From contig JAHQXB010000063.1 in assembly GCA_029856435.1 (NCBI GenBank), forward strand, positions 7,609-71,608: 64,000 nucleotides of DNA, given 5' to 3'. Position numbers and translations under genes: made by a program. Shown here one piece after another: positions 9,829-53,530 of the stretch; positions within the stretch are counted from its first letter, which is position 1, and each line of letters starts with the position of its first letter. The notes under the pieces were generated by a model, which ran no database searches, was not told where the DNA came from, and saw only the letters and a program-made list of their open reading frames with translations. Origin of the DNA: Candidatus Jordarchaeia archaeon. Its GTDB lineage: Archaea; Asgardarchaeota; Jordiarchaeia; Jordiarchaeales; Jordiarchaeaceae.

Positions 9829-10747
9829 TCACTCTTCGCCGAACAAAATTTTGGATAGTTCTTTTAGTTGTTCTATGCCCCGGATTTCTTTGTCGTAGAG
9901 GGGAACCTCTGTTATGTTAAAGTCGTCGTATAGTTCATGTATTTCTTTAAGGTTCTCTAACTGCATACTTCTACGTGCCCGACAAAAGGGACAGTTAGGT
10001 ATGTCTGGATAAACCATGTTAACGATTATGTGGTCGCAGGGGATTTCGTACTCGTTGAGAGCGGAGAGTAATCTTTCTGTCTCAAAAACAGCCATTGCTT
10101 CAGGTATCATAACAACTACGAAAGCTGTACTCTCCGGATTCGATAGTTCAGCCCGAGCCACATCAATGGTAGTCTTCAGTTTTTCCAAAACTTCCATACT
10201 GCGATCAACTTCACCGCCCTTGCCGATTAATTTTTTAAAGAGTCCCGCTAGTCGTCCAAAGTATTCCCTTATTTTTAGCATGTTAATAACCCAGCCGCTG
10301 AGTACATCTGGCAGCGATAAGAGCCTTAAGGTGTGTCCCGTTGGGGCAGTATCAAATATTACGAGGTCATACTCAGGATTTTCGATGTATTCAAGTACCT
10401 TAGCAAACGCTAAGGCCTCGTCTGCTCCTGGAGGAGTCATACCAGTTAAGCCCCCCATACTCTCCAGTAGTGATTGGGCCTGAGGCTCGGAAAAATCTCC
10501 TTGCTCCAGATTTTTCTTGTAATCCTCAAAGGCTTTATGAGGGTCAATCTCTAATCCGTAGAGATTTTTTACTCCCTTAATTTTCTTAATTTTTGGACCT
10601 ATGTGTTGGTCAAAACTATCACTTAGGCTATGGGCAGGGTCTGTACTAATGATAAGGGTTTTGAGTCCATATTCCGCTGCCCAAATAGCTGCAGCAGCCG
10701 AGCAACTGGTCTTTCCTACTCCCCCTTTTGAGGGACTAGTTAAACAT
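9829..10747 (-). CDS. Get3/ArsA-family ATPase (TRC40-like). The 5' end is anomalous (see finding).
   Basis: The track ORF 9829-10458 contains DTAPTGHTLRLL and a CPFC (CxxC) motif. My translation upstream in the same frame gives LCLTSPSKGGVGKTSCSAAAAIWAAEYGLKTLIISTDPAHSLSDSF, which is the P-loop and switch region. No ATG/GTG/TTG lies in that frame after an in-frame TAG (10750-10752). An SD-preceded ATG at 10745-10747 is out of frame. Confidence 0.8.
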
Positions 10748-10998
10748 AACTAATCTTTCCTCCGAAGAGTAGGAATTTTACTTGCCTCTCTTTTAGTAGA
10801 TCGGCTATTGTCATTGCTTACTTCCACCTGTTTTTCAGTTATGATTATGATTGGTGACATATTTACACATTTATGCTTGAATTTAAGTTTTATTCATTAG
10901 ATTCTACCTGTTTTGAGAATTAATTTTTGACCTATTACCTTGAATCGGAGATTTACAATTTATAAAGGTTGAACTTATTTGAAATCCCTGTATTTATC

Positions 10999-18788: not shown

Positions 18789-19307
18789 ATGGGTGAGGAA
18801 CCCCGGGTTGTTAAAATTTTGGTCACAGGACCTTACTCCTCTGGAAAAAGTACAGTGGTCAGCAAACTCTGCAAAGATGCAGTAAGCATAGATGCGCTTC
18901 AGACAACTGTTGGTTTTGATTTTGGTTCCAGATACGAGGAAGTCAATTTTTTGGATTTGAAGATTTTTGGAACGCCCGGACAAGAGAGGTTCAAATTTTT
19001 ACAAGAGATTTTAGCTAAGGGGAGTGCGGGTATTTTGTTAGTGGTGGATAGTACTTCTCCTGAAAATGTGGATTTAGCGAAAAATATTCTAGTGAGGATA
19101 AGGAAGGAGCTTTCAAAGAAGGTACCTGTTGTTATTCTTGCTAACAAACAGGATTTGGTAGGGGCCTTAAGCCCCGAGGAAGTTAGAAAAAAGATGGGAG
19201 TTTCGCGCAATGTCCCAGTCATAGGCACCGTGGCTCCAGAATCCATTGGTCTAAAAGAAGCTATTACAACTTTAATCAAACTAATGTTAAAGGCGGAAAA
19301 ACAGTAG
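18789..19307 (+). CDS. Small Ras-superfamily GTPase (MglA/Arf-like)
   Basis: G1 is GPYSSGKST, the switch I Thr lies in LQTTVGF, G3 is GTPGQERF and G4 is ANKQDL. 172 aa. Confidence 0.8.
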   Translation: MGEEPRVVKILVTGPYSSGKSTVVSKLCKDAVSIDALQTTVGFDFGSRYEEVNFLDLKIFGTPGQERFKFLQEILAKGSAGILLVVDSTSPENVDLAKNILVRIRKELSKKVPVVILANKQDLVGALSPEEVRKKMGVSRNVPVIGTVAPESIGLKEAITTLIKLMLKAEKQ

Positions 19308-22533: not shown

Positions 22534-22551
22534 AAGAGGAGCCATAAAAAG

Positions 22552-35211: not shown

Positions 35212-35439
35212 ACACAGCTAATTCTCTTGAAAATAGTAGGGTGAGAAAATTTAATATTTGTTATTTATCAGCATTTTTTACCAAACGTTTAAAACAGCCC
35301 TGTCTCATCGTTCTGATAATGAGAACATAATTCTGAAGAAACATTTTTACATATGGGAATGTTTGTTCCAAAAGGTTCTTAAGAAAAATTATTGTTGCTA
35401 CCTAAAATAAGGTGACTTATTTGTTCGAGGTGGTAGAGT

Positions 35440-37449
35440 TTGAGTAGGATACTGATTACTTCCGCGTTGCCCTATGCTAATGGTGACCTTCACATAGGAC
35501 ATGTTTCCAGCACATATATTCCCGCTGACGCTTATGCAAGATTTTGCAGATTAAAAAAACACGACGTAGTTTTTGTATGTGGAAGCGACGACCACGGGAC
35601 TCCAATTTCAGTTGCAGCACGCGAAGCAGGGCGCACACCCCTCGAACATATCGATTATTATCGCGAGAGACAACTAAATGATCTTAAAGCATTAAACATA
35701 AGTTTTGATAACTATTATAAAACTCACAGCGAAGAAAACCGGGAAATAACAGAATACTTTCTCCTAAAACTAAGAGAAAAGGGCTACATCTACCAGAAAG
35801 AAGTTGAAGAATTCTACTGCGAGAGGGACAAAACCTATCTTCCCGACAGAATGATAAAAGGCACCTGCCCCCACTGCGGAGCAGAAGACCAGTATAGTGA
35901 CGCCTGTGAAGTTTGTGGAAGAACAATTGAGCCGGGAGAAATACTTAAACCCTACTGCATCCTGTGTGGTGAACCTCCAGTAACCAGAAGGGAAAAACAT
36001 TTCATATTCAAGCTAAGTGTGTTCTCTGACAGATTATACCAATGGTTAACATCGGACAAAACGGGTAAGAACTTTCCCAAAGATGTTATAAACTATGTTG
36101 TTCAATGGATAAAATCGGGGCTCCAAGACTGGGACATCACTCGGGAGGATTACTGGGGATTCAAATTACCATACCCTGACGCAAAGGAGAACCAGTACGT
36201 CTATGTCTGGTTCGATGCACCCATAGGGTATATAGCCTCCACAATTAATTGGAGTAGAAAAAACAAAGCAAACTGGGAGGACTACTGGAAGAGGGAGGAT
36301 AGCTTCATCACACATTTCATTGGTAAGGATATAATATACCACCACTTTCTTTTCTGGCCAGCCATGCTTATGGGAACCGAGGAAATAACGCTCCCCAAAA
36401 AGTATGTGGTGAACGGATACCTCACCCTCGAAGGTTTAAAGATGAGCAAAAGCCGAAAATGGCTAATTCCCCTAAACTACATTTTGCAAAGATACCCGGC
36501 AGATTATGTGAGATTTTATCTGGCCTTCAAAGCCGCAAACACCATAAAGGACAATAACTTCAGCTGGGAAGAATTTCAAGAAAGAATAAACGGAGACCTT
36601 GTGGACAACATTGGAAACTTCATCCACCGAATCCTGCACTTCATCAACAACCGATACAACAGCAAAATACCAGAACCCTCAGATTTCGACGAACAGGACA
36701 GGGAATTTATCCAATTAATTAAAACCGCCCCTGACGAACTCGCCACATACTATGAAGAATGCGACCTCTCAAAAGCCATCAAAAGAATAATCGAACTCTT
36801 CAAATTCGCCAATAGTTACTTCTCAGCAAAAGAGCCCTGGAAAGCCATAAAGGAAAAACCCAAACAAGCCAAAAACACGCTCTACCTTTGCGCCAACTTC
36901 CTGCTCTCAGCATCTATACTCCTATATCCAATAGTACCCCAATCAGCAGAAAAACTCCAAGAACTACTAAAAATAAAACCAGAAAATTGGGACACCGCAA
37001 AAGAGTTCCTACTAAAACCCGAACACCAAATCCAAAAAGCAGAACCGCTATTCGAGAAAATCCCAAAAGAAGAAATAATAAAAGAAATAGAAACATTAAA
37101 ACAACAAACAGAACAAGCAGGAAAAAAGGTAGAAGTCGACATCAGCGAATTCGACAAACTGGACATAAGAATAGGGGAAATAATCTCCGCAAAACAACTA
37201 CAAGGAGACCTAACACACATAATCGTCAAAACAGAGCCCAACAAACAATTAAACATAATAGGCAAACTAGGAAAAAACTACAAACCCCAAGAATTAAACG
37301 GTAAAAAAGTAACAGTGATAACAAATCTTAAACCCAAAAAGATCCAAGGAATACTATCAGAAGGCATGCTCCTAGCAGCCATAGACGGAGAAAAAATATC
37401 ACTACTAGTACCAGACAAGGACGTTGAAACAGGAAGCAAAGTCAAATAA
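35440..37449 (+). CDS. metG: Methionyl-tRNA synthetase with a C-terminal tRNA-binding (Trbp111/EMAP-like) domain
   Basis: TTG start. PYANGDLHIGH (HIGH), a zinc knuckle CPHCG...CEVCG, KMSKS, and a C-terminal OB domain (LDIRIGEIISAK...). Confidence 0.95.
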   Translation: MSRILITSALPYANGDLHIGHVSSTYIPADAYARFCRLKKHDVVFVCGSDDHGTPISVAAREAGRTPLEHIDYYRERQLNDLKALNISFDNYYKTHSEENREITEYFLLKLREKGYIYQKEVEEFYCERDKTYLPDRMIKGTCPHCGAEDQYSDACEVCGRTIEPGEILKPYCILCGEPPVTRREKHFIFKLSVFSDRLYQWLTSDKTGKNFPKDVINYVVQWIKSGLQDWDITREDYWGFKLPYPDAKENQYVYVWFDAPIGYIASTINWSRKNKANWEDYWKREDSFITHFIGKDIIYHHFLFWPAMLMGTEEITLPKKYVVNGYLTLEGLKMSKSRKWLIPLNYILQRYPADYVRFYLAFKAANTIKDNNFSWEEFQERINGDLVDNIGNFIHRILHFINNRYNSKIPEPSDFDEQDREFIQLIKTAPDELATYYEECDLSKAIKRIIELFKFANSYFSAKEPWKAIKEKPKQAKNTLYLCANFLLSASILLYPIVPQSAEKLQELLKIKPENWDTAKEFLLKPEHQIQKAEPLFEKIPKEEIIKEIETLKQQTEQAGKKVEVDISEFDKLDIRIGEIISAKQLQGDLTHIIVKTEPNKQLNIIGKLGKNYKPQELNGKKVTVITNLKPKKIQGILSEGMLLAAIDGEKISLLVPDKDVETGSKVK

Positions 37450-37663
37450 CCAAAAAATTGAACCTACCAACACCTTTGCAACTGTTGTTACATGTTTAAG
37501 ATTTTACTATCTTACCTTATCTTGAGTATAATGTTGATTAGTGAAAGCATTAGAATTACTTTCTCTTCTTCTAAGCCACAAATACTCTTCTTTTAGGAAG
37601 CGCCTTTTCCCAAAAGTAGTCTTTAACACCCAGCCCAAAAGCTTGGCTTAAAGAACGCTAAAT

Positions 37664-38448
37664 TTAAAGCCACCACTGGAAAAGCAAGCACCCAGAGGTA
37701 ACAAGTATCCCCAAATTCACCCAACCCCATCGGCTTGGAGACAGGGAAATCCTCAACGTAATCTTCTCAGAATAGCTGCTTAAATTGAACTCTTCTGCAG
37801 CCCACATGGCTACTCCACGAGGCCACTCTAACAATCTCTTAACATCTTCCTCACTAGGCTCAACCATTAAAAGCATACTATTATCTAGGTAACTCTTGGA
37901 ATGGGGGTTCCCAAGGGATTCGAAGGTAGAATAGGAAATCGTAGCCGTAGATAATACGCCACGGGATTTCTACCCCCGTCCCGTAAGGAAACCATGGAAC
38001 CTATTACCACCACCCTATGGTTGTCCAGTACGGTAGATTATTAGCGACGATGTGAAAGTATGGGTCTGCTATCATTGTTCCGTTGGAGCTGCAAATTGAT
38101 ATTTTGGTCACGGTTTGGATGGTTCCGTTTATTTCCAGCTCGTACACTCTTGACTGTTGTGGTGCAGTTTTCACCATCGATTGTGACAGTGCCATTCCGC
38201 TCATACACCAATTTTCCCTGCTGTACCTTGACGTCTATGTCTTTGAACGACTCGTACACCTGCTGGGTTATGTTCTCCATTTTCAGTTCTATCTCTCGGC
38301 TTAGAAGCTGATCGAATTGTTTGAATTGTTCTAGGTACACTGGGTTCTGTTTCAGGAAGCTGAAGAAGTTGCGTTTCAAAGTTTCATTATCTGGATTGTT
38401 TTGACTCATTAACGAACCATATTCTGGAGTGTTTTTGATATTCTGCAT
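37664..38448 (-). pseudogene. Series of same-strand ORF fragments: an interrupted hypothetical gene that is either intron-containing or decayed
   Basis: The fragments are 38448-38041, 38204-38004 (+1 frame), 38000-37881 (same frame as the previous fragment, after TAATAG) and 37876-37664 (+1 frame). Removing 37854-37884 (31 nt) fuses the last two frames (...PFQELP|SEEDVKRLL...). Confidence 0.35.
37854..37884 (-). other. 31-nt stop-containing insertion (candidate mRNA intron) in a hypothetical gene
   Basis: The minus strand reads CCTAG|ATAATAGTATGCTTTTAATGGTTGAGCCTAG|TGAGG. The segment is bounded by a 5-nt repeat CCTAG. It contains TAA, TAG and TGA, and its length is 1 mod 3, which is the shift needed to join the two ORFs. 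Confidence 0.4.
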
Positions 38449-38495
38449 CTGCCATTCTCAGAATCCCTGATTTATACTGTCCTGGAATGTTTTCT

Positions 38496-38729
38496 TTAAT
38501 TCATCGACTTCTCGAGGGTGAGTGAACCATTCTCTATCCTTGCAATTGCTTCTGGGTCCAGTAAAGAATCTGCCCCCAAGTTAATCTTCTGGTTTGAAAC
38601 AAGCAGGGACATCCCAGTGTGAGGCAGTTTGGTTCTGGCAGCCTGTACACTTACTGTTGTTATGCCAATTCCTATCCCTAGTATAATTGCCGCAAAAAAC
38701 GACACAAAGAAAACTTTACTCTTGCACAT
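38496..38729 (-). CDS. Small membrane-anchored or secreted hypothetical protein
   Basis: 77-aa ORF with an N-terminal hydrophobic segment (VFFVSFFAAIILGIGIGITTV). Confidence 0.35.
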   Translation of the reverse strand: MCKSKVFFVSFFAAIILGIGIGITTVSVQAARTKLPHTGMSLLVSNQKINLGADSLLDPEAIARIENGSLTLEKSMN

Positions 38730-38985
38730 CCAAAATCCTCCAACAATTTAACTTATTATCTATAAAAAGTAGTATATACATCGGAAGTTTGGAGACACTA
38801 CACTCCTTACCAGTGAAGAGATATTGTGTTTTGAGAGATGCTCATCTTTTAAGTTTGTGAAAAAAAGAGCTATCTCAACCCCCAAAAAATAATCCTCCAG
38901 ACAATAATAGAGTGCAACCAATCTCACATAAAAAACACCAAAAAAACAACCCACACACAAACCTACAAACACACAACAACAATCA

Positions 38986-39888
38986 TCACACCCATTCCTG
39001 AAAAACAACACTGGAATAGGTATCAATAACATCTTCCATCTCAAAAATTTTCAGTAAAAATCTATTATAATGTTTAATATCCTTGACACGTACCACAGCC
39101 ATTAACCCATACTCCTCGCCTGTCCGATAAAGACTCCAAACCTCATCAAACCCACACAGATTCCTAGCCACCGAAAGATAGGCTGCGGGATCAACTCTAA
39201 TTTCTAAATAAAACTTCGCATCCAAACCAATTGCAGAAAAATCTACTTTTGCAGTATAACCGATAATTACGTCCTCACTGCGAAGTTTAGAAATTCGCCG
39301 AGAAACCACAGGTTGCGAAACACCTAACTTCTTAGCCAAATCAGTTTGGGAATAAGGCATAGAATTGGTTTGCTGCCTAAGGATACTAAGCAACTTCCAA
39401 TCAAAATCAGAAACAGGGTAATAATCGGTTTTTGAATCAGGAACAACAAAACCCGACTCCTTGAAGGTAGCCAGTATCTCCACCAAACGATACTTCTTAA
39501 ACCTAGAAACCACCATCAAACAATCAAGACCAGAAAGAAAAGAAGAAAACTCAGAAGGAGAACGAAAACGATACACCCCCAAAAGAGAATACTCACCCGA
39601 AATCCCATCCATAGACTGAATCTGGGGAATACTTAACAGACCTCTAACAATATCATACTCGTGAGGATTCGTCTTAACAAAAAGAAAAATACTACGATCA
39701 AAAAGTATCTTCAAAGGATTCAAAACTACAGTATATCCTCTCAAAACCTTCCTCTCAAATAACCGACTAATCACCTTAGCAATATGATTACGGCTCTTAC
39801 CCAGCCTCTCCGCCAAACCCTTCACACCAGCAGAAGAATCCTTCAACAAAAGATTCAAAACCGCCTCTTCTAGAGCATCTAACCGCAT
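38986..39888 (-). CDS. Tandem (duplicated) Lrp/AsnC-family transcription regulator
   Basis: There are two HTH regions (GVKGLAERLGKSRNHIAKVISRL and QTDLAKKLGVSQPVVSRRISKL), each followed by a RAM-like domain. The likely start is the ATG at 39888 (MRLDALE...). It is divergent from ahcY. Confidence 0.8.
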   Translation of the reverse strand: MRLDALEEAVLNLLLKDSSAGVKGLAERLGKSRNHIAKVISRLFERKVLRGYTVVLNPLKILFDRSIFLFVKTNPHEYDIVRGLLSIPQIQSMDGISGEYSLLGVYRFRSPSEFSSFLSGLDCLMVVSRFKKYRLVEILATFKESGFVVPDSKTDYYPVSDFDWKLLSILRQQTNSMPYSQTDLAKKLGVSQPVVSRRISKLRSEDVIIGYTAKVDFSAIGLDAKFYLEIRVDPAAYLSVARNLCGFDEVWSLYRTGEEYGLMAVVRVKDIKHYNRFLLKIFEMEDVIDTYSSVVFQEWV

Positions 39889-40003
39889 AAAAACCACACA
39901 AAACAAGCCAGTACAAAAGCAAATTATAACAAACAAAATATATAAACTTTATAAGATTACACCCACAAAAAGGAAAACAAAAACACCACAAGGGAGAAAA
40001 AGT

Positions 40004-41374
40004 ATGACACAAACGCAAAAAGGAGAAAAATTTGAAGTCAAAGACCTAAAACTAGCACCAAGCGGACGAGCAACAATTGAGTGGGCAGAATCAAGAATGC
40101 CCGTGCTCATGCAAATAAGAGAGAGGTTCCGAAAAGAAAAACCGCTTAAAAACACCATAGTAGGAGCATGCCTCCATGTAACAAAAGAAACAGCAGTTCT
40201 TGCAAAAACCCTGAAAGCTGGAGGTGCAGAAGTCTACCTCTGTGCCTCAAACCCCCTATCAACACAGGACCATGTAGCCGCCGCACTGGTAGAAGAAGGA
40301 ATAAACACATTCGCCTGGAAAGGCATGGACTACGAAGGCTACTACCGAGCAATAGCCAACGTTATTAAGGGAGAACCGAACATCACACTAGACGACGGCG
40401 CCGACCTAGTATCAACCTTAATCAAACTCAAAAGAGGAGAAACCGGCGAGGAAATCAAGGTAGTTAAGAAAATTCTTGGAAGCCGAACAGACTGGGCGGA
40501 CAAAGTATGGGCCGGAGCCGAGGAGACCACAACGGGCGTAATCCGCCTTAGAGCCATGGCAAAAGATAACGTGCTACTATACCCAATTATAGCTACAAAT
40601 GATACCCCCACAAAATGGGAAACATAAACACCCCCCGTGTTTAAGCCCAAATTTGACAACCTGTGGGGAACTGGGCAAAGCACCATAGACGGCATACTGA
40701 GAGCAACAGCAGACCTTATCGCGGGCAAAATTTTTGTAGTCGCAGGGTATGGCCATTGCGGTAGAGGCGTAGCGCTAAGAGCTAAGGGGCTAGGAGCGAG
40801 AAGAGTCATCATATGCGAGATAAATCCACATCGAGCCTTAACAGCCGCCTTAGAGGGTATGGAAGTAATGCCCATGAGGGAAGCCGCAGAGGTGGGAGAC
40901 ATTTTCGTAACCGCCACAGGATGCAAGAACGTCATAAATGCAGAACATATGAAAAAGATGAAAAACGGAGCAGTGATGTGTAACACAGGTCACTTTAATG
41001 TGGAAATAAATATACCTGACTTGGAGAAAATCAGCGTTAGCAAGAGAGAGATAAGACCACTAGTCGATGAGTACACACTGGAGGATGGAAGAAAAATCTA
41101 CCTACTAGCCCAAGGCAGGCTTGTGAATCTAGCATGTGCTGAGGGACACCCAAGCGAAGTTATGGACATGAGCTTTTCTGATCAGGCTTTAGCTGTGGAG
41201 TGGATTGTTAAGAATAGGGATAAGCTGTCTGGGATGGGTAGTGTGGTTTTGGATATTCCTGAAGAGATTGATAGGACTGTTGCAGAATTGAAGTGTAAGG
41301 CTATGGGTCTTAGATTAGATGTTTTGACCCCTGAGCAGGAAGCTTATTTGTCGGGCTGGGCTGAAGGAACCTAG
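40004..41374 (+). CDS. ahcY: S-adenosyl-L-homocysteine hydrolase, interrupted by a 30-nt in-frame insertion carrying a TAA
   Basis: Track ORFs 40004-40627 and 40637-41374 are in the same frame. Together they give a full AhcY ([17 protein letters not shown], ...[36 protein letters not shown]). Confidence 0.9.
40616..40645 (+). other. 30-nt insertion with an in-frame TAA and an internal hairpin inside ahcY (candidate mRNA intron; the junction is ambiguous by 1-2 nt)
   Basis: tgggaaacataaacaccccccgtgtttaag. Removing it gives NDTPTK-PK-FDN, which is the canonical ND..TK..FDN spacing. Helices tggg/ccca, caaa/tttg and aaacat/gtgttt, with an aag bulge, are visible. Confidence 0.55.
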
Positions 41375-41525
41375 TTTCCCTCTTCCTTTTTATTTTGCGA
41401 GGTTTTGTTGTTTTTTTGGTCTACTTACTTTATAGGTTTATGGTTTTTTTGTTGTTGCAGGGTTAAGTCTATCTTTATTGGGGATTTTGCCTCTCCAAAA
41501 ATAAAAAGTTCTAGTTAATTTGCTT

Positions 41526-41852
41526 TTAAATTAGGGATAATAGCGCTATTGGAGCGAGGTTCTGGGTTAACAATTGGTTAATTAGTTGATATAAGTAGAT
41601 TCCGAGGTATTGGGTTACTCCGCCTGAAATTTCGATGATTATAGGGATAAGGAGATGCCACTTAGAGGAAACCCCTATTAGCAGTAGGCTTATTACTATT
41701 CCTATTATGTAGGAGAGGCGGCGGTGGAAGACGGCTAGTAGTGCTAGGTTCATGATGAACATACCCACCCCAATCATTAGTAGTATACCAAAAATTGTGT
41801 TGAGCAGATTATAAGTTAAGGGGTTGGTAAGAAGCCAGTACACATTTATCAT
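41526..41852 (-). CDS. Small integral membrane protein
   Basis: 108-aa ORF, almost entirely hydrophobic (3-4 TM helices). Confidence 0.45.
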   Translation of the reverse strand: MINVYWLLTNPLTYNLLNTIFGILLMIGVGMFIMNLALLAVFHRRLSYIIGIVISLLLIGVSSKWHLLIPIIIEISGGVTQYLGIYLYQLINQLLTQNLAPIALLSLI

Positions 41853-42055
41853 AGGAATCCTCTCTATTGTATTTTTGTGTAGGAAAGGATATGAACCCCT
41901 CGAAATTTAATAGGCTGATTTCATTATTGGGGGAGGTAAGATGTATAGGAAAGTTTTAATTACGTTTTTAGGATTAAATTTTGCAGATATTTGGCGTTGA
42001 TTGTTGATTTTTGTGGTTTGGATGTTGATGTTAATGTTGATTGGAGGAGAATCTG

Positions 42056-43174
42056 ATGGATACTGAGGAAAAGGTTCAGCGTGTCTTGCGTGGCTTGAGT
42101 GAGGTTATTACTGTTGAGGATTTGCGCAATTTGTTTGAGGTAGATAACCACCCTAAGGCTTACATAGGTGTTGAGCCTTCTGGATAAACCTTTTAGGCTT
42201 TCTAGGGTTCCAGAATATTTCATTTGGGCTGGGTGGTTTGGGCCTGGAAGGTTCAGGATTTGGTTCTTTGTGATGTGGATATGCATGTTCTCGAAGCGAC
42301 TTGGCATGCTAAGATTAATGACAAGTTTGGTGGAAACATGGATACCATACACACCTGTGCAAAGTATATTGAGCACTGTTTACAAGCGTTGGGTGTAGAT
42401 ATTGGTAGGGTTCGTTTTCCAAAGGCTGAGGATCTTATGGATAGTTTGGATTATTGGGCCACAGTGATAAACATTGCTAAAAACACTACGCTGGCACGTA
42501 TTAAGAGAGCTATGAGTATTATGGGCCGCAAAGTAGACGATGCTGAATCGGATTATTCAAAAACGCTTTATCCTTGCATACAAGTGGCTGACATCTTATA
42601 TGCTGGTTTTAAGCTGTGTCTGGGTGGGACTGACCAGAGAAGAGCTCACATATTGGCGAGGGAGTTGGCTCCTAAGTTCGGCTTGGATTGGAAGCCGGTA
42701 GCGATTCACACTCCTCTCCTCATAGGCTTGGAGGGATTATCGAGGATGGAGGTTGAAGGTGTGAATGAGGATGTTTTAATGGAGGCCAAGATGTCGAAAT
42801 CCAAACCTCAAACAGCAATTTTTATACATGATAAGCCAGAGGAAATCAGGAGTAAAATCTCTGCTGCCTTTTGCCCACCTAAACAGGTAGAATTCAATCC
42901 AATAATTGAAATAAATAGGCTTCTTCTTTTTTCCAGAGAAGGTTTCATTCTTCATGTGGAACGTGAGGAAAAATTTGGAGGGGATGTAGATTTTGAGAGC
43001 TTTGATGAATTGAAATCTGCCTACAGCGCCGGTAATCTCCATCCTCTGGACTTGAAACGGGCTACTGCAGAGGCACTCATTGCACTGCTGAAAAATGTTA
43101 GACAACATTTTGAAAAGAATAGTGAAGCCCGTAACCTTTTAGAAACATTAAAAAAGGCTACAGTGACCCGGTAA
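42056..43174 (+). CDS. tyrS: Tyrosyl-tRNA synthetase (archaeal type), interrupted by a 30-nt in-frame insertion carrying three stops
   Basis: A 43-codon ORF from ATG 42056 (MDTEEKVQRVL...KAYIGVEPSG) is in the same frame as track ORF 42224-43174 (KMSKS, FGGDV, LHPLDLKRATAEALI). By memory it is collinear with M. jannaschii TyrRS. Confidence 0.9.
42185..42214 (+). other. 30-nt insertion with three in-frame stops inside tyrS (candidate mRNA intron)
   Basis: taaaccttttaggctttctagggttccaga. Removing it gives EPSG-IF-HLGW. The upstream 6 nt tctgga (42179-42184) are complementary to the last 6 nt, tccaga (42209-42214). Confidence 0.6.
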
Positions 43175-43186
43175 TAAACCTATGAC

Positions 43187-43306
43187 TTTCTCATTAATTT
43201 TTTCCTAAACCTCTTCTTAACCGGGGTTATTTAAGGCTTCTTTCCCCAAAAAAAGGTGGAAAAAACCATATTTTCTGGAAGCGAAAAGGAAAAAATTTAG
43301 TTGGAA
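43187..43306. repeat. Dispersed ~120-bp intergenic repeat, copy B, with 11-nt inverted termini
   Basis: It matches the reverse complement of 3516-3633. The internal inverted termini are aattttttcct (43196-43206) and aggaaaaaatt (43287-43297). Confidence 0.6.
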
Positions 43307-43423
43307 AATTTATAGTAGGGATACTTCCACGCAGGATCATAAGAAAACTTTATTTTGTTCGGGTTTAACATTGTGTTCAAGAGAATGTCGTTTGTTTCTC
43401 TTTGCTAGTTTGGATGGCTGATT

Positions 43424-43849
43424 ATGTCTTGTAATAATTTATATGAAGAATTGGAACGGTTGATATCAAAGCTCAGAACGATTTCTGAAAACGGTACCCC
43501 CATTGTTGTGGAGGGCTATAAAGACGAGAGAAGCCTAAGAGAACTGGGAGTTCAAGGAATAATTCTCAAGTTATCTGGAAGAAAACTCATAGAAATCGCT
43601 GAGGAACTTGCCAATTATGAGAACTTTCTGATTCTAACCGACTTTGACCGCAAAGGACAAAATATGGCGCTGCGCCTCTTGGAGTATTTAGATTACCACA
43701 AGGCGGAGTTGACGCTGAGTTTCAGGAGAAGATTTAAAAATTTAACCTCAAAAGTCACCTGCGACATAGAAGGATTAGCATCCTCATATTTCACTCTTCA
43801 AAACAAAAACAATGAAAACATGGAATTCGAAGTTGAAAAATTCTTTTAA
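43424..43849 (+). CDS. Small Toprim-domain protein (RNase M5/primase-like)
   Basis: 141-aa ORF. It has a Toprim Glu context (PIVVEGYKDERSL) and a DxD context (LILTDFDRKGQ). Confidence 0.6.
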   Translation: MSCNNLYEELERLISKLRTISENGTPIVVEGYKDERSLRELGVQGIILKLSGRKLIEIAEELANYENFLILTDFDRKGQNMALRLLEYLDYHKAELTLSFRRRFKNLTSKVTCDIEGLASSYFTLQNKNNENMEFEVEKFF

Positions 43850-44009
43850 GAATAAGTGGGAGAAAGACATAATTATATCCGAAAATACGTTAATGTTAAA
43901 AATGGCATATTATCATGCTAAAGCTTAATTAAATAAACAGTCACTCTTACCAAAACTTCAATCATTATACACCCTTATTATCTTATTTCATTATGGAGGT
44001 GACGCTTAC

Positions 44010-45242
44010 ATGGTTAATCGAAACGAGTTTAGCACAACAAAGTACATTATAAAAGCTAAAATAGAAGTAGACGGAGTTGTTGAAAAACCAGACGTTGTAG
44101 GAGCAATATTTGGACAAACCGAGGGACTGCTGGGTTCTGAACTTGACCTGCGGGAGCTACAGAGAACTGGGCGAATAGGTAGAATAAAAGTTACAATAGA
44201 ATCGCATGGAGGCAAATCAACGGGAACAGTAATAATCCCCTCAAGCCTTGACAAAGTGGAAACTGCAATGCTAGCAGCCGCTGTGGAATCCGTTGACAGA
44301 GTAGGGCCATGTACCGCTCATGCAACCTTAGAGATAATTGAAGATGTACGAGAGGTTAAAAGAAGAAAGATTGTTCAGAGAGCAGCAGATATTATAAGAA
44401 AATGGTCCGAAGAGGTGTCGCCTGAAAGTCAACAGCTCACAGACGAGGTTTTGGATGCAGTTCGAGTAGCTGAAATCACTAAGTACGGTCCTGAAGAATT
44501 ACCAGCGGGACCAGCCATAGACAGCTCTGACGATATAATAATAGTTGAAGGGCGGGCGGATGTTCTTAATCTTTTGAGATGTGGTTATAAGAACGTTATA
44601 GCGATGGAAGGAACAAGTATACCAAAGACTATAATCGATCTTAGCAAGAAAAAAACGATCACAGCCTTTCTAGATGGGGATAGGGGAGGGGACTTGATTC
44701 TGAAGGAATTACAACAAGTAGCAGATATAGATTATGTGGCGCGAGCTCCTCAGGGAAGGGAGGTTGAAGAACTCACCCAAAAGGAAGTGGTTAAGGCCCT
44801 GAGAAACAGATTACCTGTAGAGCAATTAGAAGCAGAAGAACCCAAAAAGAAGGAGAAGGAGAAAAGAAGAGAGCAGGAAAAAGAAGAAAAAAAGGAAAGA
44901 GAGTTGGAAGAAAAAAAACCCAAAAGGATGGAAATTCCTCCCAAAATTAAGCTTCCAGAACAGATTCTGAGCTACCTGCACAACATCAAGGCTTCAAATA
45001 AGGCTGTACTTTTGGGGAAAAATTTTGAATTAATGGAAGAAATGGAGGTATCTTCGTTAGCAGAGCGTCTGAAAGAAGTGGACTCGGTTAGAGCCATCAT
45101 TTTTGACGGAATTATTACTCAGAGGTTGGTGGACCTAGCTCAGGATAAAGGGGTGGAGTATATTTTAGGGGTAAGACAAGAGAATGTTACAAAGAAACCC
45201 TTAAATTTAAAGATTGTAGAGTTCAACGAGGTAATAACTTAA
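44010..45242 (+). CDS. dnaG: Archaeal DnaG-like primase (Toprim; exosome-associated type)
   Basis: N-terminus KYIIKAKIEVDGVVEKPDVVGAIFGQTEGLLG and Toprim motifs (IIIVEGRADVLNL, FLDGDRGGDLI). A GGAGGTGA Shine-Dalgarno motif lies upstream. Confidence 0.85.
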   Translation: MVNRNEFSTTKYIIKAKIEVDGVVEKPDVVGAIFGQTEGLLGSELDLRELQRTGRIGRIKVTIESHGGKSTGTVIIPSSLDKVETAMLAAAVESVDRVGPCTAHATLEIIEDVREVKRRKIVQRAADIIRKWSEEVSPESQQLTDEVLDAVRVAEITKYGPEELPAGPAIDSSDDIIIVEGRADVLNLLRCGYKNVIAMEGTSIPKTIIDLSKKKTITAFLDGDRGGDLILKELQQVADIDYVARAPQGREVEELTQKEVVKALRNRLPVEQLEAEEPKKKEKEKRREQEKEEKKERELEEKKPKRMEIPPKIKLPEQILSYLHNIKASNKAVLLGKNFELMEEMEVSSLAERLKEVDSVRAIIFDGIITQRLVDLAQDKGVEYILGVRQENVTKKPLNLKIVEFNEVIT

Positions 45243-45281
45243 AAATTTACACCCCGTTAGAAACTGTAGGGTGAGAAATTT

Positions 45282-46403
45282 TTGAAGGAAAAAAGTGAAA
45301 AGATTCGACATATTTCTACTTCCGTCCGTGAAGAGCCTTTAAAAAAGAAGGAACGAATGCAATATCTATCTGTGGTGGAGCTACAGCCATCAGGTTTTCC
45401 TTTCCGGCTTGTGGGAGAGGAGCCCCCTATAGCCTTATTGACCGACGACACTGAACTGTTCCAAGCATACGCTAGGGAACAGTGGGCGGGTATTTGTGTT
45501 AAGAAGGGGGATTACCTATTTGACCAACTGGTTTTCCCAGATTTCGCCTTTAAGGTTTCCGACGCTCAGCCAGCTCGGGGAAGGATAGGTTTTTCCACAC
45601 GTTTCATTCTTAAGAGGAAACCCTTCAGTGAGGAGAAGAGACCGTCAATTCGTTTCTCAGATGTTATAGGGCAAAACGAAGCTAAAAGCAAGTGTCTGAT
45701 AATTAAAAAATATTTGGAAAATCCGAAAGCCTTTGGGGACTGGGCGCCGAGAAACATTCTGTTCTATGGGCCTCCAGGAACGGGGAAAACAATGCTGGCT
45801 CAAGCACTGGCCAACGAAACAAATGCGCCCTTCTATTTAATTAAATCCACAGATTTGATAGGAGTTAATGTCGGTGATGCTTCAAGAAGGATACACTCTG
45901 TCTTCAAAATAGCGTCGGACAATGCGCCTAGCGTTATATACCTTGACGAAATTGACGCCATAGGGTTAGATCGCAGCTTCCAAAACATAAGAGGGGACGT
46001 ATCAGAGGTAGTTAATGCTTTGTTGGGGGAGCTGGACGGATTAACCGCGAATTTTGGCGTTGTATGCATAGGAGCCACAAATAATCCTATCATGCTAGAT
46101 AAGGGAATCAGAAGCAGATTCGAAGAGGAAATAGAGTTCAAACTTCCCAACGCTGAAGAACGGGAACAAATTCTCAGACTCTACATATCAAAAATGCCCT
46201 TGCCGGTAAAAGTGGACATTAAAAAGATAGTTAGAAACACTGAAGGCTTCTCTGGAAGAGACCTTAAAGACAAAATCCTTAAAGCAGCGCTACACAAAGC
46301 TATACTACAAGAGGAAAAATGTGTAACCCAAGACATAATAGACGCCGTACTTAAACAACTCAATGACAAATCACCAAAAGAAAAACCCAAAATGTTCACT
46401 TGA
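45282..46403 (+). CDS. AAA ATPase with a Cdc48-N-like domain and a single AAA module
   Basis: TTG start. ILFYGPPGTGKTMLAQALA, VIYLDEIDAIG and GATNNPIMLDKGIRSRFE. Confidence 0.8.
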   Translation: MKEKSEKIRHISTSVREEPLKKKERMQYLSVVELQPSGFPFRLVGEEPPIALLTDDTELFQAYAREQWAGICVKKGDYLFDQLVFPDFAFKVSDAQPARGRIGFSTRFILKRKPFSEEKRPSIRFSDVIGQNEAKSKCLIIKKYLENPKAFGDWAPRNILFYGPPGTGKTMLAQALANETNAPFYLIKSTDLIGVNVGDASRRIHSVFKIASDNAPSVIYLDEIDAIGLDRSFQNIRGDVSEVVNALLGELDGLTANFGVVCIGATNNPIMLDKGIRSRFEEEIEFKLPNAEEREQILRLYISKMPLPVKVDIKKIVRNTEGFSGRDLKDKILKAALHKAILQEEKCVTQDIIDAVLKQLNDKSPKEKPKMFT

Positions 46404-52380: not shown

Positions 52381-53530
52381 TTAGGATACTGGACGCCAGA
52401 TAATTCCTAGTTCATCCGCTGTTTTGTATGCTTCCTCCATTTCGTGGCTAGTAACCCTTCTACATATGTCTGCATATTCCTTCCTTCTTGGCACCTCGTG
52501 TGTTGGGTGATACTGTTCCATTATGTTAACTAAAGCCTTGGGGCAATTTTTAGCCACCCATTCAAGAACCGGTTTGGTGCAACACTCAATGTGTCCCGGT
52601 AAAACTAGGTGCCTTATTATCATGCCAGATGTTCCTGGTTCCACAGTTTCATCATAGGCCATTTTATGATTTCTTGAAACAATTTCCCAGTAATTAGAAA
52701 CTTTACTCAACCTTTCTGCGCATTGATCATTCCCATATTTAAAGTCGGGGAGCCAGAAATCCATAACGTCTAATAAAAGCTTCATACATTCTTTGGAACA
52801 GTACATATTAGAATTCCATAGTTGTACAATGTTTGTTTTAGTTTCCCTTACGCCCTTTAAAATGTTGTAGGTGTTTGGAGTTGGTTCTCCACCCACATAA
52901 TTTATGTTTCTTGCACCTTCCCTCTTTAGATCTCTTGAGATTCGTGCAAGGCTCTCACCCGAAGTTTCTATACCGTTTTTTGGATTTGTGGAAATGTCAT
53001 AGTTCTGACAAAACACGCATTTAAAAGTGCAACTGGAGAAGAAGAATGCACCGTAAGAGCCTTAACTCTTAAGCGTTTGTGCCTGAAGGAACTAAAGGGG
53101 CCTCTTCTCCAGTATGTATGAATGCTGAGGATACATAAGACTCTCTGCCAAGTTTACAAAATCCTTTTTCACCCTCCAGTCTATTAGCCCCACACCGTCT
53201 TTCACAGAAATGACACTGCGATAGAATCCTTCTTGCTAGTTCCACCTTAGCATCTAAATAAGAAATCTTCGGCGAATCAATGTTTCCCAGATCCAGTTCA
53301 CCTGCATCAATCCGCCTCAAGACACTCCTAAAAACACCACTTATTCTATCATGCTCATCCCAAAGCTTGCCCAGCTCCGCATCTAGCTCAACATCTACAC
53401 CTACTTTTAAAGCTATCATAAACTTAGCATAAAGCCTATCATTGAATACCTCATAGTACCTCCAAAGCCTCTCACGAACTGTACCGTCATCCCAAACACG
53501 GTAAGCATCTGGGCGAATTAGCTTCCACAT
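52381..53530 (-). CDS. PflX-type radical SAM protein, interrupted by a 13-nt hairpin insertion just upstream of the CxxxCxxC motif
   Basis: Track ORFs 53069-53530 (…CHFCERRCGANR…HTGEEAPLVPSGTNA*) and 52381-53016 belong to one protein. My translation upstream of 53016 gives GSYGAFFFSSCTFKCVFCQNYDIS in the +1 frame. Confidence 0.8.
53062..53074 (-). other. 13-nt palindromic insertion carrying two TAA codons inside the radical SAM gene (candidate mini-intron)
   Basis: The minus strand reads ACAAAC|GCTTAAGAGTTAA|GGCTCT. The stem is CTTAA/TTAAG with loop GAG. Removing it gives ...PSGTN-GSYGAFFFSSC..., which restores the frame and the usual G-xx-GSG-x-FF spacing. The junction is ambiguous by 1 nt. 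Confidence 0.5.

What the first reader, a model, noticed from the sequence alone, without database searches (positions are those of the whole stretch)
40611..40655. ahcY carries a 30-nt in-frame insertion with a TAA and a helix-bulge-helix-like fold at a conserved motif
ORFs 40004-40627 and 40637-41374 share one frame and jointly encode AhcY. Read-through gives ...[31 protein letters not shown]... Removing 10 codons restores ND-xx-TK-xx-FDN-x-YGTGQS spacing, as I recall it from archaeal and eukaryotic AhcY.

The following structure is visible:
- outer helix caaa (40611-14) / tttg (40652-55);
- 4-bp helix tggg (40616-19) / ccca (40646-49);
- 3-nt bulge aag (40643-45);
- inner helix aaacat (40620-25) / gtgttt (40637-42), or the alternative aaacac (40626-31) / gtgttt.

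Cutting at A40615 and inside the aag bulge removes exactly 30 nt (40615-40644). That yields ACA AAG CCC AAA TTT, i.e. TKPKF. This looks like a relaxed bulge-helix-bulge substrate.

A weaker alternative also exists. ACA-TAA-ACA (40622-40630) is a textbook matched-codon hop site over a stop, which would keep the insertion as a 9-residue loop.
Basis: partly seen in the sequence, partly recalled or inferred. Interest (0 to 1): 0.9.

Follow-up and report, generated by a model that had tools for sequence, protein, structure and literature searches.

The report
Mini-introns splitting Asgard archaeal protein genes
The adenosylhomocysteinase gene of this Asgard archaeon (Jordarchaeia/Freyarchaeia) is interrupted by a 30-base intron of the tRNA-splicing type, three other genes in the same 64 kb carry similar introns, and so messenger-RNA splicing looks routine in a close relative of eukaryotes.

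Summary
Intron-less relatives read NDTPTKWE|FDN, so the insert is 40622-40651, not 40615-40644.

These coordinates fit the canonical archaeal bulge-helix-bulge (BHB) rule.
- Exon UGGG (40616-19) pairs with intron CCCA (40646-49).
- The 3-nt bulges are AA|A and AA|U, each cut after the second base.
- An intron hairpin abuts both.

The same rule gives gap-free conserved motifs in three more broken genes in the window:
- tyrS, 42186-42215, 30 nt;
- arsA/get3, 10756-10728, 29 nt;
- a radical-SAM gene, 53076-53046, 31 nt.

Orthologous introns occur in many independent Jordarchaeia/Freyarchaeia assemblies. Their lengths ignore the reading frame: ahcY 27/29/30 nt, tyrS 30/31, radical SAM 28/31. Stems stay conserved while loops vary. 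Flanking exons are under strong purifying selection (dN/dS 0.01-0.1). More distant relatives lack the introns exactly at the predicted junctions.

Best explanation (confidence about 0.85): pre-mRNA introns removed by the tRNA splicing endonuclease and RtcB ligase, as known for crenarchaeal cbf5. No RNA data were available. The hop, read-through, pseudogene and artefact readings are rejected. I found no report of such mRNA introns in Asgard archaea.

The parts
40004..40621 (+). ahcY exon 1 (ends ...ACA AAA TGG GAA = TKWE)
   Evidence: ORF and Pfam AdoHcyase profile positions 2-216. The junction comes from intron-less relatives. dN/dS is 0.03-0.10 against four related genomes.
40622..40651 (+). 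ahcY BHB intron, 30 nt (ACAUAAACACCCCCCGUGUUUAAGCCCAAA). In-frame TAA at 40625-27.
   Evidence: Removal gives [18 protein letters not shown], identical in spacing to all relatives. Orthologues are 30, 30, 29 and 27 nt with variable loops and conserved stems. The intron is absent from Jordarchaeum sp. LHC_1308 and other Asgard genomes.
40652..41374 (+). ahcY exon 2 (starts TTT GAC AAC = FDN), including the stop codon
   Evidence: Pfam AdoHcyase_NAD. dN/dS is 0.008-0.043 with dS up to 2.3.
40616..40619 (+). Central BHB helix H, 5' strand (UGGG). These are exon-1 positions -6 to -3.
   Evidence: Pairs with CCCA 40646-49 in the MFE fold and in the RNAalifold consensus. Invariant in 5 genomes.
40646..40649 (+). 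Central BHB helix H', 3' strand (CCCA). These are intron positions -6 to -3.
40620..40622 (+). 5' bulge AA|A. Predicted cleavage lies between 40621 and 40622.
   Evidence: Read directly from the sequence. The rule 'cut between the 2nd and 3rd bulge nucleotide' is from PMC2738675. The predicted cut coincides with the junction derived from homology.
40650..40652 (+). 3' splice-site bulge AA|U. Predicted cleavage lies between 40651 and 40652.
   Evidence: Read directly from the sequence. In the MFE fold these bases open a 12-nt loop (40650-61) before the exon-exon helix, so this side is relaxed.
40623..40645 (+). Intron helix h'. It consists of C40623:G40645, an A.A mismatch, 7 bp between 40625-31 and 40637-43, and the loop 40632-36.
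   Evidence: In L004 the A.A mismatch becomes A:U. The loop varies (CCCCC, CAACU, CACCC, UACCC, CA).
40606..40612 (+). Exon-exon helix, 5' strand (CCCCACA), pairing with UGUGGGG 40662-68
   Evidence: MFE fold and RNAalifold. In L003 an A:U pair becomes G:U.
40662..40668 (+). Exon-exon helix, 3' strand (UGUGGGG)
42056..42185 (+). tyrS exon 1 (MDTEEK...YIGVEPSG + U)
   Evidence: Alignment to Aeropyrum TyrRS 2cya is gap-free.
42186..42215 (+). tyrS BHB intron, 30 nt. H = CUGG 42180-83 / CCAG 42210-13. Bulges are AU|A (42184-86) and AA|U (42214-16). h' = 42187-92 / 42204-09.
   Evidence: The spliced product EPSG-LF-HLGW matches EPSG-VA-HIGW of 2cya without a gap. Eight distinct orthologous sequences are 30 or 31 nt, and each core folds into a hairpin abutting the bulge and H'. 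The junction codon is U|UA or C|UA, both Leu.
42216..43174 (+). tyrS exon 2 (UA UUU CAU UUG... = (L)FHLGW...), including the stop codon
   Evidence: Pfam tRNA-synt_1b. dN/dS is 0.04-0.08. All 11 protein clusters at 80-96% identity lack the N-terminal exon.
10757..10814 (-). arsA/get3 exon 1 (MTIADLLKERQVKFLLFGG + A)
10728..10756 (-). arsA BHB intron, 29 nt. H = GAGG 10762-59 / CCUC 10733-30. Both bulges are AA|A. The hairpin GAUUAGUU/AACUAGUC has 8 bp, 9 in the MFE fold.
   Evidence: Removal restores the frame and the P-loop FGGKGGVGKT. The MFE is -29.1 kcal/mol, z = -4.68, with a 12-bp exon-exon helix. L086 (98% aa identity) has a 29-nt orthologue. Relatives at 70-83% aa identity lack it exactly at the predicted junction.
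9829..10727 (-). arsA/get3 exon 2, including the stop codon
   Evidence: Pfam ArsA_ATPase profile positions 9-304 of 305. PDB alignment is gap-free.
53077..53530 (-). Radical-SAM (PflA-like activase) exon 1 (...HTGEEAPLVPSGT + A)
53046..53076 (-). Radical-SAM BHB intron, 31 nt. H = GCAC 53082-79 / GUGC 53051-48. Bulges are AA|A and AU|U. h' = CG/CG plus an inner hairpin.
   Evidence: The spliced product GEEAPLVPSGTIFFSSCTFKCVFCQNYDIS aligns without a gap to homologues that read GEEAPLVPSGTIFF. Orthologues are 31 nt (an A to G change creates a C:G pair) and 28 nt (a perfect 8-bp h').
52381..53045 (-). Radical-SAM exon 2, including the stop codon
   Evidence: Pfam Radical_SAM. Relatives' gene calls are the same 211-233 aa fragment.

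Best explanation
The 30 nt at 40622-40651 are a bulge-helix-bulge (BHB) intron in the ahcY pre-mRNA of a Jordarchaeia/Freyarchaeia (Asgard) archaeon.

Proposed structure:
- The last six exon-1 bases are UGGG + AA, and the last six intron bases are CCCA + AA.
- UGGG pairs with CCCA to form the 4-bp central helix.
- The 5' bulge is AA|A. It is closed on its far side by the intron hairpin.
- The 3' site is AA|U. It sits two bases after the central helix, in a looser loop that is closed further out by an exon-exon helix.

Proposed mechanism (inferred, not shown):
- The tRNA splicing endonuclease EndA cuts after the second base of each bulge. In Asgard archaea EndA is reported to be the broad-specificity (alpha-beta)2 type.
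- An RtcB-type ligase joins the exons.
- The result is ...ACA AAA UGG GAA|UUU GAC..., i.e. TKWE|FDN.
- The intron is probably released as a small circle.

Three other genes in the window have introns of 29-31 nt with the same geometry: tyrS, arsA/get3 and a radical-SAM activase. This looks like a general property of the lineage, which is also reported to have introns in 92-95% of its tRNA genes.

Shown here: the interruptions, the structure rule, its exact agreement with the homology-defined junctions, conservation in relatives, and selection on the exons.
Inferred: the enzymes, and the splicing event itself.
For: 1. Junction from homology alone. Relatives without the insert read TKW[EDQ]FDN, and L005 DNA reads AAATGGGATTTTGAT. 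This fixes the insert at 40622-40651.

2. The BHB rule predicts that junction. The motif is a 4-bp helix flanked by 3-nt bulges (PMC5829648 and PMC4090602). Cleavage falls between the 2nd and 3rd bulge base (PMC2738675). The rule predicts exactly the homology junction in ahcY, and equally in arsA, tyrS and the radical-SAM gene. A much more permissive version of the motif fits only about 0.14% of random (p,q) pairs in the window: 24,923 hits in roughly 17.5 million pairs. Four coincidences out of four are therefore far beyond chance.

3. Independent assemblies carry the same introns.
- ahcY: L002, L003, L026, L004.
- tyrS: the same four plus L095-L101.
- arsA: L086.
- radical SAM: L082-L085.

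4. Intron lengths ignore the reading frame: ahcY 30/30/30/29/27, tyrS 30 or 31, radical SAM 31/28, arsA 29. Indels and substitutions cluster in the loops, while H, the bulges and h' are conserved.

5. Changes that preserve pairing:
- tyrS inner helix UAG/CUA becomes CAG/CUG, and pair 5 is U:G, U:A or C:G.
- ahcY A.A becomes A:U.
- radical SAM C.A becomes C:G, and the stem is remodelled to a perfect 8 bp.
- In the arsA exon-exon helix, U:A becomes U:G and U:G becomes U:A through synonymous changes.

6. Both exons of ahcY and tyrS are under strong purifying selection: dN/dS 0.008-0.095 at dS 0.2-2.3.

7. Presence and absence follow phylogeny with exact boundaries. The arsA intron is absent in relatives at 70-83% aa identity. 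The ahcY intron is absent at 74% identity and below.

8. Context from the literature.
- Freyarchaeia (= Jordarchaeia) have introns in 92-95% of tRNA genes, often several and at non-canonical positions (PMC11291895).
- Asgard EndA is (alpha-beta)2 with the L1 loop, which confers broad specificity (PMC5829648).
- The confirmed precedent, cbf5, also has its intron inside a catalytic-residue codon.
Against: - There is no RNA evidence. No spliced full-length AhcY or TyrRS from this clade exists in the 5.8-billion-protein collection.
- The 3' side is not a strict 3-nt bulge. The exon-exon helix immediately after it is weak (0-2 bp), and in the MFE folds the 3' site lies in a 5-12-nt loop. These are relaxed (HBh'-like) motifs.
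- The tyrS region as a whole is not unusually stable (z = +0.3). A 7-bp continuous helix competes with the BHB register.
- In ahcY the stems are invariant, so RNAalifold reports no compensatory pair.
- The motif alone is not specific: 50 hits in the window against 24-39 in controls.
- EndA and RtcB genes of this genome were not examined.
- The relatives' sequences are metagenome assemblies, so a single 1-nt indel such as the one in L026 could be an error.
Confidence: 0.85

Rival explanations
1. Programmed translational bypassing (a 'hop'), as in phage T4 gene 60 or the byp elements of Magnusiomyces mitochondria. The ribosome takes off before the insert and lands after it, skipping 27-31 nt. 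A minimal version is the reader's ACA-TAA-ACA hop over the stop.
For: - The inserts are short, form hairpins, and carry a stop codon within 0-5 codons of the 5' boundary.
- In arsA the boundary codons are both Lys (AAG...AAA).
- In tyrS GGA is followed directly by UAA, as GGA-UAG is in gene 60.
- Bypassing can change frame, so lengths that are not multiples of 3 do not exclude it.
Against: - Matched take-off and landing codons are absent in three of four cases. In ahcY they are GAA and AAA. In tyrS no GGA lies at the landing site. In the radical-SAM gene they are ACA and GCA.
- In tyrS and the radical-SAM gene the homology junction falls inside a codon (U|UA, A|UC). A hop cannot produce the conserved Ile of SGTIFF.
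- The short ACA-TAA-ACA hop would keep a 9-residue insert inside an invariant motif, and it is out of frame in the 29-nt L026 orthologue.
- What is conserved is the 4-bp exon-intron helix and the bulges, not codon identity.
- I found no report of bypassing elements in archaea.
Confidence: 0.05
2. The genes are broken. Either they are pseudogenes in a decaying genome, or they are genes expressed as two separate polypeptides that reassemble, or the inserts are assembly or sequencing artefacts.
For: - Gene callers split all four genes, and databases hold only the fragments.
- A Logan contig ends exactly at the TAA inside the ahcY insert.
Against: - The same inserts occur in many independent assemblies from different studies and sources.
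- Exons on both sides are under strong purifying selection over dS up to about 2.
- tyrS is essential and is split in every member of the clade. No intact copy at more than 57% identity was found.
- Exon 1 of arsA is 19 codons and ends inside the P-loop. Exon 1 of tyrS is 43 codons. The breaks lie inside catalytic motifs, which is implausible for stable two-piece enzymes.
- The intron stems are more conserved than synonymous sites.
Confidence: 0.03
3. The inserts are removed from the RNA, but by something other than EndA. Possibilities are a different structure-specific nuclease plus ligase, a self-cleaving element, or a lineage-specific mechanism that happens to look like a BHB.
For: - The 3' site is not a strict bulge.
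- No enzyme was tested.
- All four introns start with A and have A-rich bulges (AAA/AUA; AAU/AAA/AUU). This might reflect a more specific recognition than the classical motif.
Against: - The 3-4-3 geometry, with cuts after the second bulge base, is the signature of EndA and holds in four of four cases.
- The lineage already relies on this machinery for nearly all of its tRNAs.
- No ribozyme or other RNA family was detected.
- 27-31 nt is too small for group I or II introns.
Confidence: 0.06

Closest known systems
BHB intron in the cbf5 (pseudouridine synthase) pre-mRNA of Crenarchaeota (Aeropyrum, Sulfolobus, Desulfurococcales); Watanabe 2002, Yoshinari 2006, Yokobori 2009 (PMC2738675)
   Same: [quoted passage not shown]
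- The predicted cut lies between the 2nd and 3rd bulge bases.
- It is located inside a codon of a catalytic, highly conserved motif.
- The host has a hetero-oligomeric EndA with broad specificity.
- The intron is gained and lost among related species.
- It is easily mis-annotated as a frameshift or a split gene.
   Different: - The genes differ: ahcY, tyrS, arsA/get3 and a radical-SAM activase, none of them cbf5.
- The phylum differs (Asgard).
- There are four introns in about 60 genes rather than one gene per genome.
- Splicing is experimentally confirmed for cbf5 and not here.
Non-canonical and multiple tRNA introns of Freyarchaeia/Atabeyarchaeia (PMC11291895) and Thermoproteales
   Same: - The same lineage and, presumably, the same enzymes.
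- Introns of similar size (median 12-25 nt in archaeal tRNAs, PMC4090602) at many positions.
- Relaxed hBH / HBh' motifs.
   Different: - The substrate here is mRNA, so splicing must restore a reading frame.
- Unspliced RNA would give truncated proteins. Each intron has an in-frame stop within about 5 codons.
- The cited paper reports tRNA introns only.
Unconventional cytoplasmic splicing of HAC1/XBP1 mRNA (Ire1 endonuclease plus tRNA ligase Trl1/RtcB) in eukaryotes
   Same: - An mRNA intron removed by a protein endonuclease that cuts at two small RNA structures.
- The exons are sealed by the tRNA ligase, and no spliceosome is involved.
- The XBP1 intron is 26 nt and changes the reading frame.
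   Different: - The nuclease is different (Ire1, not EndA), and it cuts in stem-loops rather than bulges.
- That system is a regulated stress switch in one gene. Nothing here shows regulation.
Translational bypassing elements (T4 gene 60; byps of Magnusiomyces capitatus mitochondria, 27-55 nt)
   Same: - Short inserts of similar size break ORFs, with several per genome.
- They have hairpin potential and a stop near the 5' edge.
   Different: - Bypassing elements are defined by matched take-off and landing codons. That holds in only one of the four cases here.
- What is conserved here is an exon-intron helix with two bulges, and two of the junctions fall inside codons.

Membership tests
Archaeal BHB intron (EndA substrate) | A 4-bp central helix formed by 5'-exon positions -6..-3 and intron positions -6..-3 from the 3' splice site | tested here: met
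   ahcY UGGG/CCCA, tyrS CUGG/CCAG, arsA GAGG/CCUC, radical SAM GCAC/GUGC. All are Watson-Crick pairs. The helix is invariant in orthologues.
Archaeal BHB intron (EndA substrate) | A 3-nt bulge at the 5' splice site, closed by the central helix on one side and an intron helix (h') on the other | tested here: met
   The bulges are AAA, AUA (ACA in some relatives), AAA and AAA. h' starts at intron base 2 in all four, with 2-9 bp.
Archaeal BHB intron (EndA substrate) | A 3-nt bulge at the 3' splice site, closed by the central helix and an exon-exon helix (h) directly after it | tested here: inconclusive
   The central helix and the two intron bases after it are in place. The helix directly after the bulge is only 0-2 bp. 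Stronger exon-exon helices lie 5-12 nt further out: ahcY 7 bp, arsA 12 bp, tyrS 5 bp. This corresponds to the relaxed HBh' class, which is accepted by (alpha-beta)2 EndA with the L1 loop according to PMC5829648.
Archaeal BHB intron (EndA substrate) | Cutting between the 2nd and 3rd base of each bulge yields the functional RNA | tested here: met
   All four spliced ORFs are uninterrupted and align without gaps across the junction to intron-less homologues or solved structures.
Archaeal BHB intron (EndA substrate) | Cleavage by EndA, ligation by RtcB, and spliced RNA present in cells | not testable with these tools
   No transcriptome data were available. No spliced-form protein is present in the protein collection.
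Archaeal BHB intron (EndA substrate) | The host encodes a splicing endonuclease able to cut relaxed motifs | not tested
   Taken from the literature for Asgard archaea in general (PMC5829648) and implied by the tRNA-intron load of Freyarchaeia (PMC11291895). The EndA of this genome was not looked for.
Translational bypassing element | Matching take-off and landing codons flank the skipped stretch | tested here: not met
   ahcY GAA vs AAA. tyrS GGA vs AGA/GAA. Radical SAM ACA vs GCA. Only arsA matches, with Lys on both sides.
Protein insertion / loop with a recent nonsense mutation, or stop-codon recoding | The insert is kept in frame, and orthologues carry it as sense codons | tested here: not met
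   Insert lengths are 27/29/30, 30/31, 29 and 31/28 nt. Stops are retained in orthologues. arsA and the radical-SAM gene change frame across the insert.
Group I / group II / spliceosomal-type intron | A ribozyme core of hundreds of nt, or GU...AG boundaries with a branch site | tested here: not met
   The introns are 27-31 nt. Their boundaries are A...AA or A...AU. There is no Rfam match even at E = 0.5.

The most novel reading that the evidence does not exclude
Jordarchaeia/Freyarchaeia splice their messenger RNAs on a genome-wide scale with the tRNA-splicing machinery. If the density seen here holds (4 of about 60 genes), a 3-Mb genome would carry on the order of 100-200 mRNA mini-introns. 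They sit preferentially inside the most conserved catalytic motifs and are gained and lost between species. That would make this Asgard lineage the first prokaryote in which split protein genes and obligatory mRNA splicing are the norm rather than a single-gene curiosity. It would also make gene calling in these genomes systematically wrong.
Probability: 0.5. Interest if true: 0.9.

Novelty: new member of a known kind. Interest (0 to 1): 0.8.

Why it matters
Splicing of archaeal protein-coding transcripts by the tRNA endonuclease has been confirmed for a single gene, cbf5, in Crenarchaeota. Here the same kind of intron interrupts four unrelated housekeeping genes within 64 kb of an Asgard archaeon, and it is conserved across the Jordarchaeia/Freyarchaeia clade.

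- **Eukaryote origins.** A close relative of eukaryotes would routinely tolerate, and depend on, removing introns from mRNA. That bears on how split genes could become established before a nucleus or spliceosome existed. It also raises the question of how splicing is reconciled with coupled transcription and translation.
- **Annotation.** Essential genes such as tyrS are annotated as fragments or 'missing' in every genome of the clade. This distorts completeness estimates, metabolic reconstructions and phylogenomic marker sets for Asgard archaea.
- **Testability.** The exact predicted junctions can be tested directly in existing metatranscriptomes.

Tried and rejected
Rejected because relatives read TKWE-FDN. 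The proposed bulges also lie 5' of each central-helix strand, the mirror image of a BHB. I checked the topology against the statement that the first two anticodon bases lie in the central helix (PMC4090602).
- **BHB registers for a 30-nt deletion starting at 40612-40616.** None pairs (manual check).
- **Permissive BHB scanner over the window.** It gave about 25,000 hits. Adding an ORF-restoration filter left 1,378, and a coding-score filter left 17. Only ahcY and tyrS were real. arsA was missed because its exon 1 is only 19 codons.
- **A false positive.** The candidate at 18874-18905 is not real: the small GTPase gene 18789-19307 is intact in one frame.
- **Stricter motif with A-rich bulges.** 50 hits against 24-39 in reversed or shuffled controls. 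No further convincing intron emerged, and in-frame introns without stops cannot be excluded.
- **Same-frame neighbouring ORFs.** These are separate genes, not split ones: 21865/22552, 43929/45270, 48282/49188, 55970/56516, 61477/61903.
- **Overlapping neighbouring ORFs in different frames.** These are also separate genes, each with its own Pfam family: 967-2388/2-1039, 11002-11778/11702-12562, 29672-30541/30456-31091 and 33151-33609/32808-33284.
- **tRNA and RNA-family searches.** ARAGORN and Rfam (gathering threshold and E up to 0.5) found nothing in the window.
- **A 37-nt insertion specific to L002.** It lies in the AP_endonuc_2 gene, at the position equivalent to window 47540. It has no BHB fit and no stable fold, and remains unexplained.
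- **Scan of the non-syntenic Jordarchaeum locus L005.** No credible intron.
- **Literature searches.** I searched for Asgard mRNA introns and for archaeal bypassing. Neither has been described in the searchable library.
Full report
**What is in the sequence**

ORFs 40004-40627 and 40637-41374 lie in one frame and are separated by TAA at 40625-27. They carry the N-terminal AdoHcyase domain (profile positions 2-216) and the AdoHcyase_NAD / C-terminal part. The window comes from an Asgard archaeon:
- The best AhcY relatives are Jordarchaeales and other Promethearchaeota.
- The window contains ESCRT genes Vps28 and EAP30.
- It is about 90% DNA-identical and syntenic over 23 kb with three 'Jordarchaeia/Freyarchaeota' MAGs, and about 78% identical with Ca. 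Jordarchaeum madagascariense.

**Where the insert really is**

Aligning the read-through protein with ten relatives shows that they all read NDTPTKW[E/D/Q]-FDN (alignment A1). The nearest intron-less genome, L005, reads AAATGGGATTTTGAT. So TKWE is native, and the extra ten codons are T*TPPVFKPK, i.e. 40622-40651. The start is ambiguous by the dinucleotide AA. Removing them gives a 446-aa protein that matches the ahcY equivalog TIGR00936 over its whole length, 594 bits against a cutoff of 498.

**The structure and the rule**

A BHB motif is two 3-nt bulges separated by a 4-bp helix (PMC5829648 and PMC4090602). In pre-tRNA the first two anticodon bases lie in the central helix. Cleavage falls between the second and third bulge base (PMC2738675).

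From this, the last six exon bases are helix (4) plus bulge (2), and the last six intron bases are helix (4) plus bulge (2). The bulge therefore lies 3' of each central-helix strand.

At the homology junction the rule fits ahcY exactly:
- Central helix: UGGG 40616-19 pairs with CCCA 40646-49.
- 5' bulge: AA|A, 40620-22.
- 3' site: AA|U, 40650-52.
- Intron helix: C40623:G40645, one A.A mismatch, then 7 bp (40625-31 / 40637-43) around a CCCCC loop.

The MFE fold contains the central helix, the 7-bp hairpin and a 7-bp exon-exon helix, CCCCACA 40606-12 / UGUGGGG 40662-68 (z = -2.67). The 3' site lies in a 12-nt loop rather than a strict bulge, so this is a relaxed motif.

**It is not a one-off**

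Three more genes in the window are broken in the same way.

1. **tyrS.** Read-through gives YIGVEPSG*TF*AF*GSRIFHLGW.
   - The rule gives the central helix CUGG 42180-83 / CCAG 42210-13, bulges AU|A and AA|U, and the intron helix 42187-92 / 42204-09.
   - The intron is 42186-42215 (30 nt).
   - The product EPSG-LF-HLGW aligns without a gap to EPSG-VA-HIGW of Aeropyrum TyrRS 2cya.
2. **arsA/get3, minus strand.**
   - The 19-codon exon 1, MTIADLLKERQVKFLLFGG(K), is in a different frame from exon 2, (K)GGVGKTSCS....
   - The rule gives GAGG/CCUC with two AA|A bulges and an 8-bp hairpin (9 bp in the MFE fold).
   - The intron is 10756-10728 (29 nt). It restores FGGKGGVGKT, which is gap-free against Get3/ArsA structures.
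   - This region folds at -29.1 kcal/mol (z = -4.68) and has a 12-bp exon-exon helix.
3. **A PflA-like radical-SAM gene, minus strand.**
   - The two exons are in different frames.
   - The rule gives GCAC/GUGC with bulges AA|A and AU|U.
   - The intron is 53076-53046 (31 nt).
   - The product GEEAPLVPSGT|IFFSSCTFKCVFCQNYDIS aligns without a gap to homologues that read GEEAPLVPSGTIFF (A2).

A far more permissive form of the motif is met by only about 0.14% of position pairs in the window. Four exact agreements with homology-defined junctions are therefore not chance. The motif on its own is not a usable detector, however: it gives 50 hits against 24-39 in controls.

**Comparative evidence**

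*ahcY intron*
- It is present in L002, L003, L026 and L004. It is absent from L005 and from all other Asgard genomes.
- Lengths are 30, 30, 29 and 27 nt.
- The loop varies: CCCCC, CAACU, CACCC, UACCC, CA.
- The central helix, the bulges and the stem are unchanged, even though synonymous divergence from L004 is 1.1-2.3 substitutions per site.
- In L004 the A.A mismatch becomes A:U.
- The 29-nt version would put exon 2 out of frame under any read-through or short-hop model.

*tyrS intron*
- All 11 protein clusters at 80-96% identity are N-terminally truncated (302-336 aa). The next full-length relatives are only 57% identical. The gene is therefore split throughout the clade.
- Eight distinct orthologous sequences are 30 or 31 nt long.
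- All keep CUGG/CCAG and the 3' AAU.
- The 5' bulge is AUA or ACA, so the junction codon is UUA or CUA. Both encode Leu.
- Every core folds into a hairpin that abuts the bulge and the central helix.
- Pair 5 is U:G, U:A, C:G or U.U.
- The inner helix changes from UAG/CUA to CAG/CUG in L098.

*arsA intron*
- L086 (98% aa identity) has a 29-nt orthologue.
- It differs by three stem changes: one wobble pair becomes Watson-Crick and two pairs are lost.
- Two synonymous exon changes keep the exon-exon helix paired.
- Seven relatives at 70-83% aa identity lack the intron and read TTYGGNGGRAARGGNGG, exactly at the predicted junction.

*Radical-SAM intron*
- Three contigs have a 31-nt orthologue in which an A to G change creates an extra C:G pair.
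- A Jordarchaeaceae contig (85% aa identity) has a 28-nt version with a perfect 8-bp stem.

*Exons*
- Exons on both sides of the ahcY and tyrS introns have dN/dS of 0.008-0.095.

**Mechanism**

[quoted passage not shown] The literature adds three points:
- Asgard archaea are reported to have the (alpha-beta)2 EndA with the L1 loop, which confers broad specificity (PMC5829648).
- Freyarchaeia, the earlier name for Jordarchaeia, have introns in 92-95% of their tRNA genes, often several per gene and at non-canonical positions (PMC11291895).
- The only confirmed archaeal mRNA intron, in crenarchaeal cbf5, has a relaxed BHB and sits inside the codon of the catalytic Asp (PMC2738675). All four introns here likewise sit inside highly conserved motifs: NDxxTKxxFDN, the HIGH region, the P-loop, and the loop before CxxxCxxC.

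Each intron carries an in-frame stop within about five codons of the 5' splice site, so unspliced RNA would give short truncated products.

Not shown here: the cleavage itself, the enzymes in this genome, and any spliced RNA. No spliced-form protein exists in the protein collection.

**Rivals**

- *Bypassing* fails on matched codons in three of four cases and cannot make the conserved Ile of SGTIFF. The ACA-TAA-ACA hop fails on the 29-nt orthologue.
- *Pseudogenes, two-piece enzymes and artefacts* fail on the selection on the exons, on the recurrence in independent assemblies, and on the position of the breaks inside catalytic motifs.
- *A non-EndA RNA mechanism* cannot be excluded, but nothing calls for it.

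**Novelty**

Searches of the paper library found tRNA introns reported for this lineage, and stop-codon recoding reported for Jordarchaeia. They found no report of introns in protein-coding genes of any Asgard archaeon.

The kind of element is known. The genes, the phylum and above all the density (4 in about 60 genes) are new.

Noticed in passing
window 42186-42215 (+), 10728-10756 (-), 53046-53076 (-): Three further BHB-type mini-introns of 30, 29 and 31 nt interrupt tyrS, arsA/get3 and a radical-SAM activase. Two of them shift the reading frame. Gene callers report these genes as fragments in every related genome.
   Followed up: yes
window about 40200-40900 (profile over 35000-46000): GC skew changes sign inside ahcY, independently of gene orientation. 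It is about -0.2 to -0.36 from 36.6 to 40.2 kb and +0.1 to +0.43 from 40.6 to 45.8 kb, so cumulative skew has a minimum near 40.3 kb. This looks like a replication origin or terminus. Bidirectional replication with skew has been reported for Freyarchaeia (PMC11291895). No orc1/cdc6 gene was seen nearby.
   Followed up: partly
L002 position 17011-17047 (equivalent to window 47540, gene 47460-48266, AP_endonuc_2 / xylose-isomerase-like TIM barrel): The relative QZM_A3 carries a 37-nt insertion (ACGGCGCAATGTAATATGTATGTTATTTAGGTAAACT) about 27 codons into this gene. It is absent from the window, L003 and L026. It shifts the frame, has no BHB fit and no stable fold. Its nature is unknown.
   Followed up: partly
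window 37617-38984: About 1.3 kb present in the window is absent from all four syntenic relatives. It holds two minus-strand ORFs, 38041-38448 and 38499-38747, with no Pfam match. It could be a strain-specific insertion or a variable island.
   Followed up: no
whole window: No tRNA gene (ARAGORN) and no Rfam family match, even at E = 0.5, in 64 kb. Nearly all tRNA genes of this lineage are reported to contain one or more introns, so standard finders may simply miss them.
   Followed up: partly
L001 (Logan SRR14702244 contig, 967 nt) = window 39661-40627: An independent short-read contig is identical to the window across ahcY exon 1 over the stretch compared (L001 850-967). It ends exactly at the TAA inside the intron. 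This could be an assembly-graph break caused by strain variation in the intron loop, or just low coverage.
   Followed up: no
window 21865-23286 (+): Adjacent Vps28-like and EAP30/Vps36-like (ESCRT-I/II) genes are separated only by a TAG and 18 nt in the same frame. This is typical Asgard eukaryotic-signature content. The two are separate genes.
   Followed up: partly
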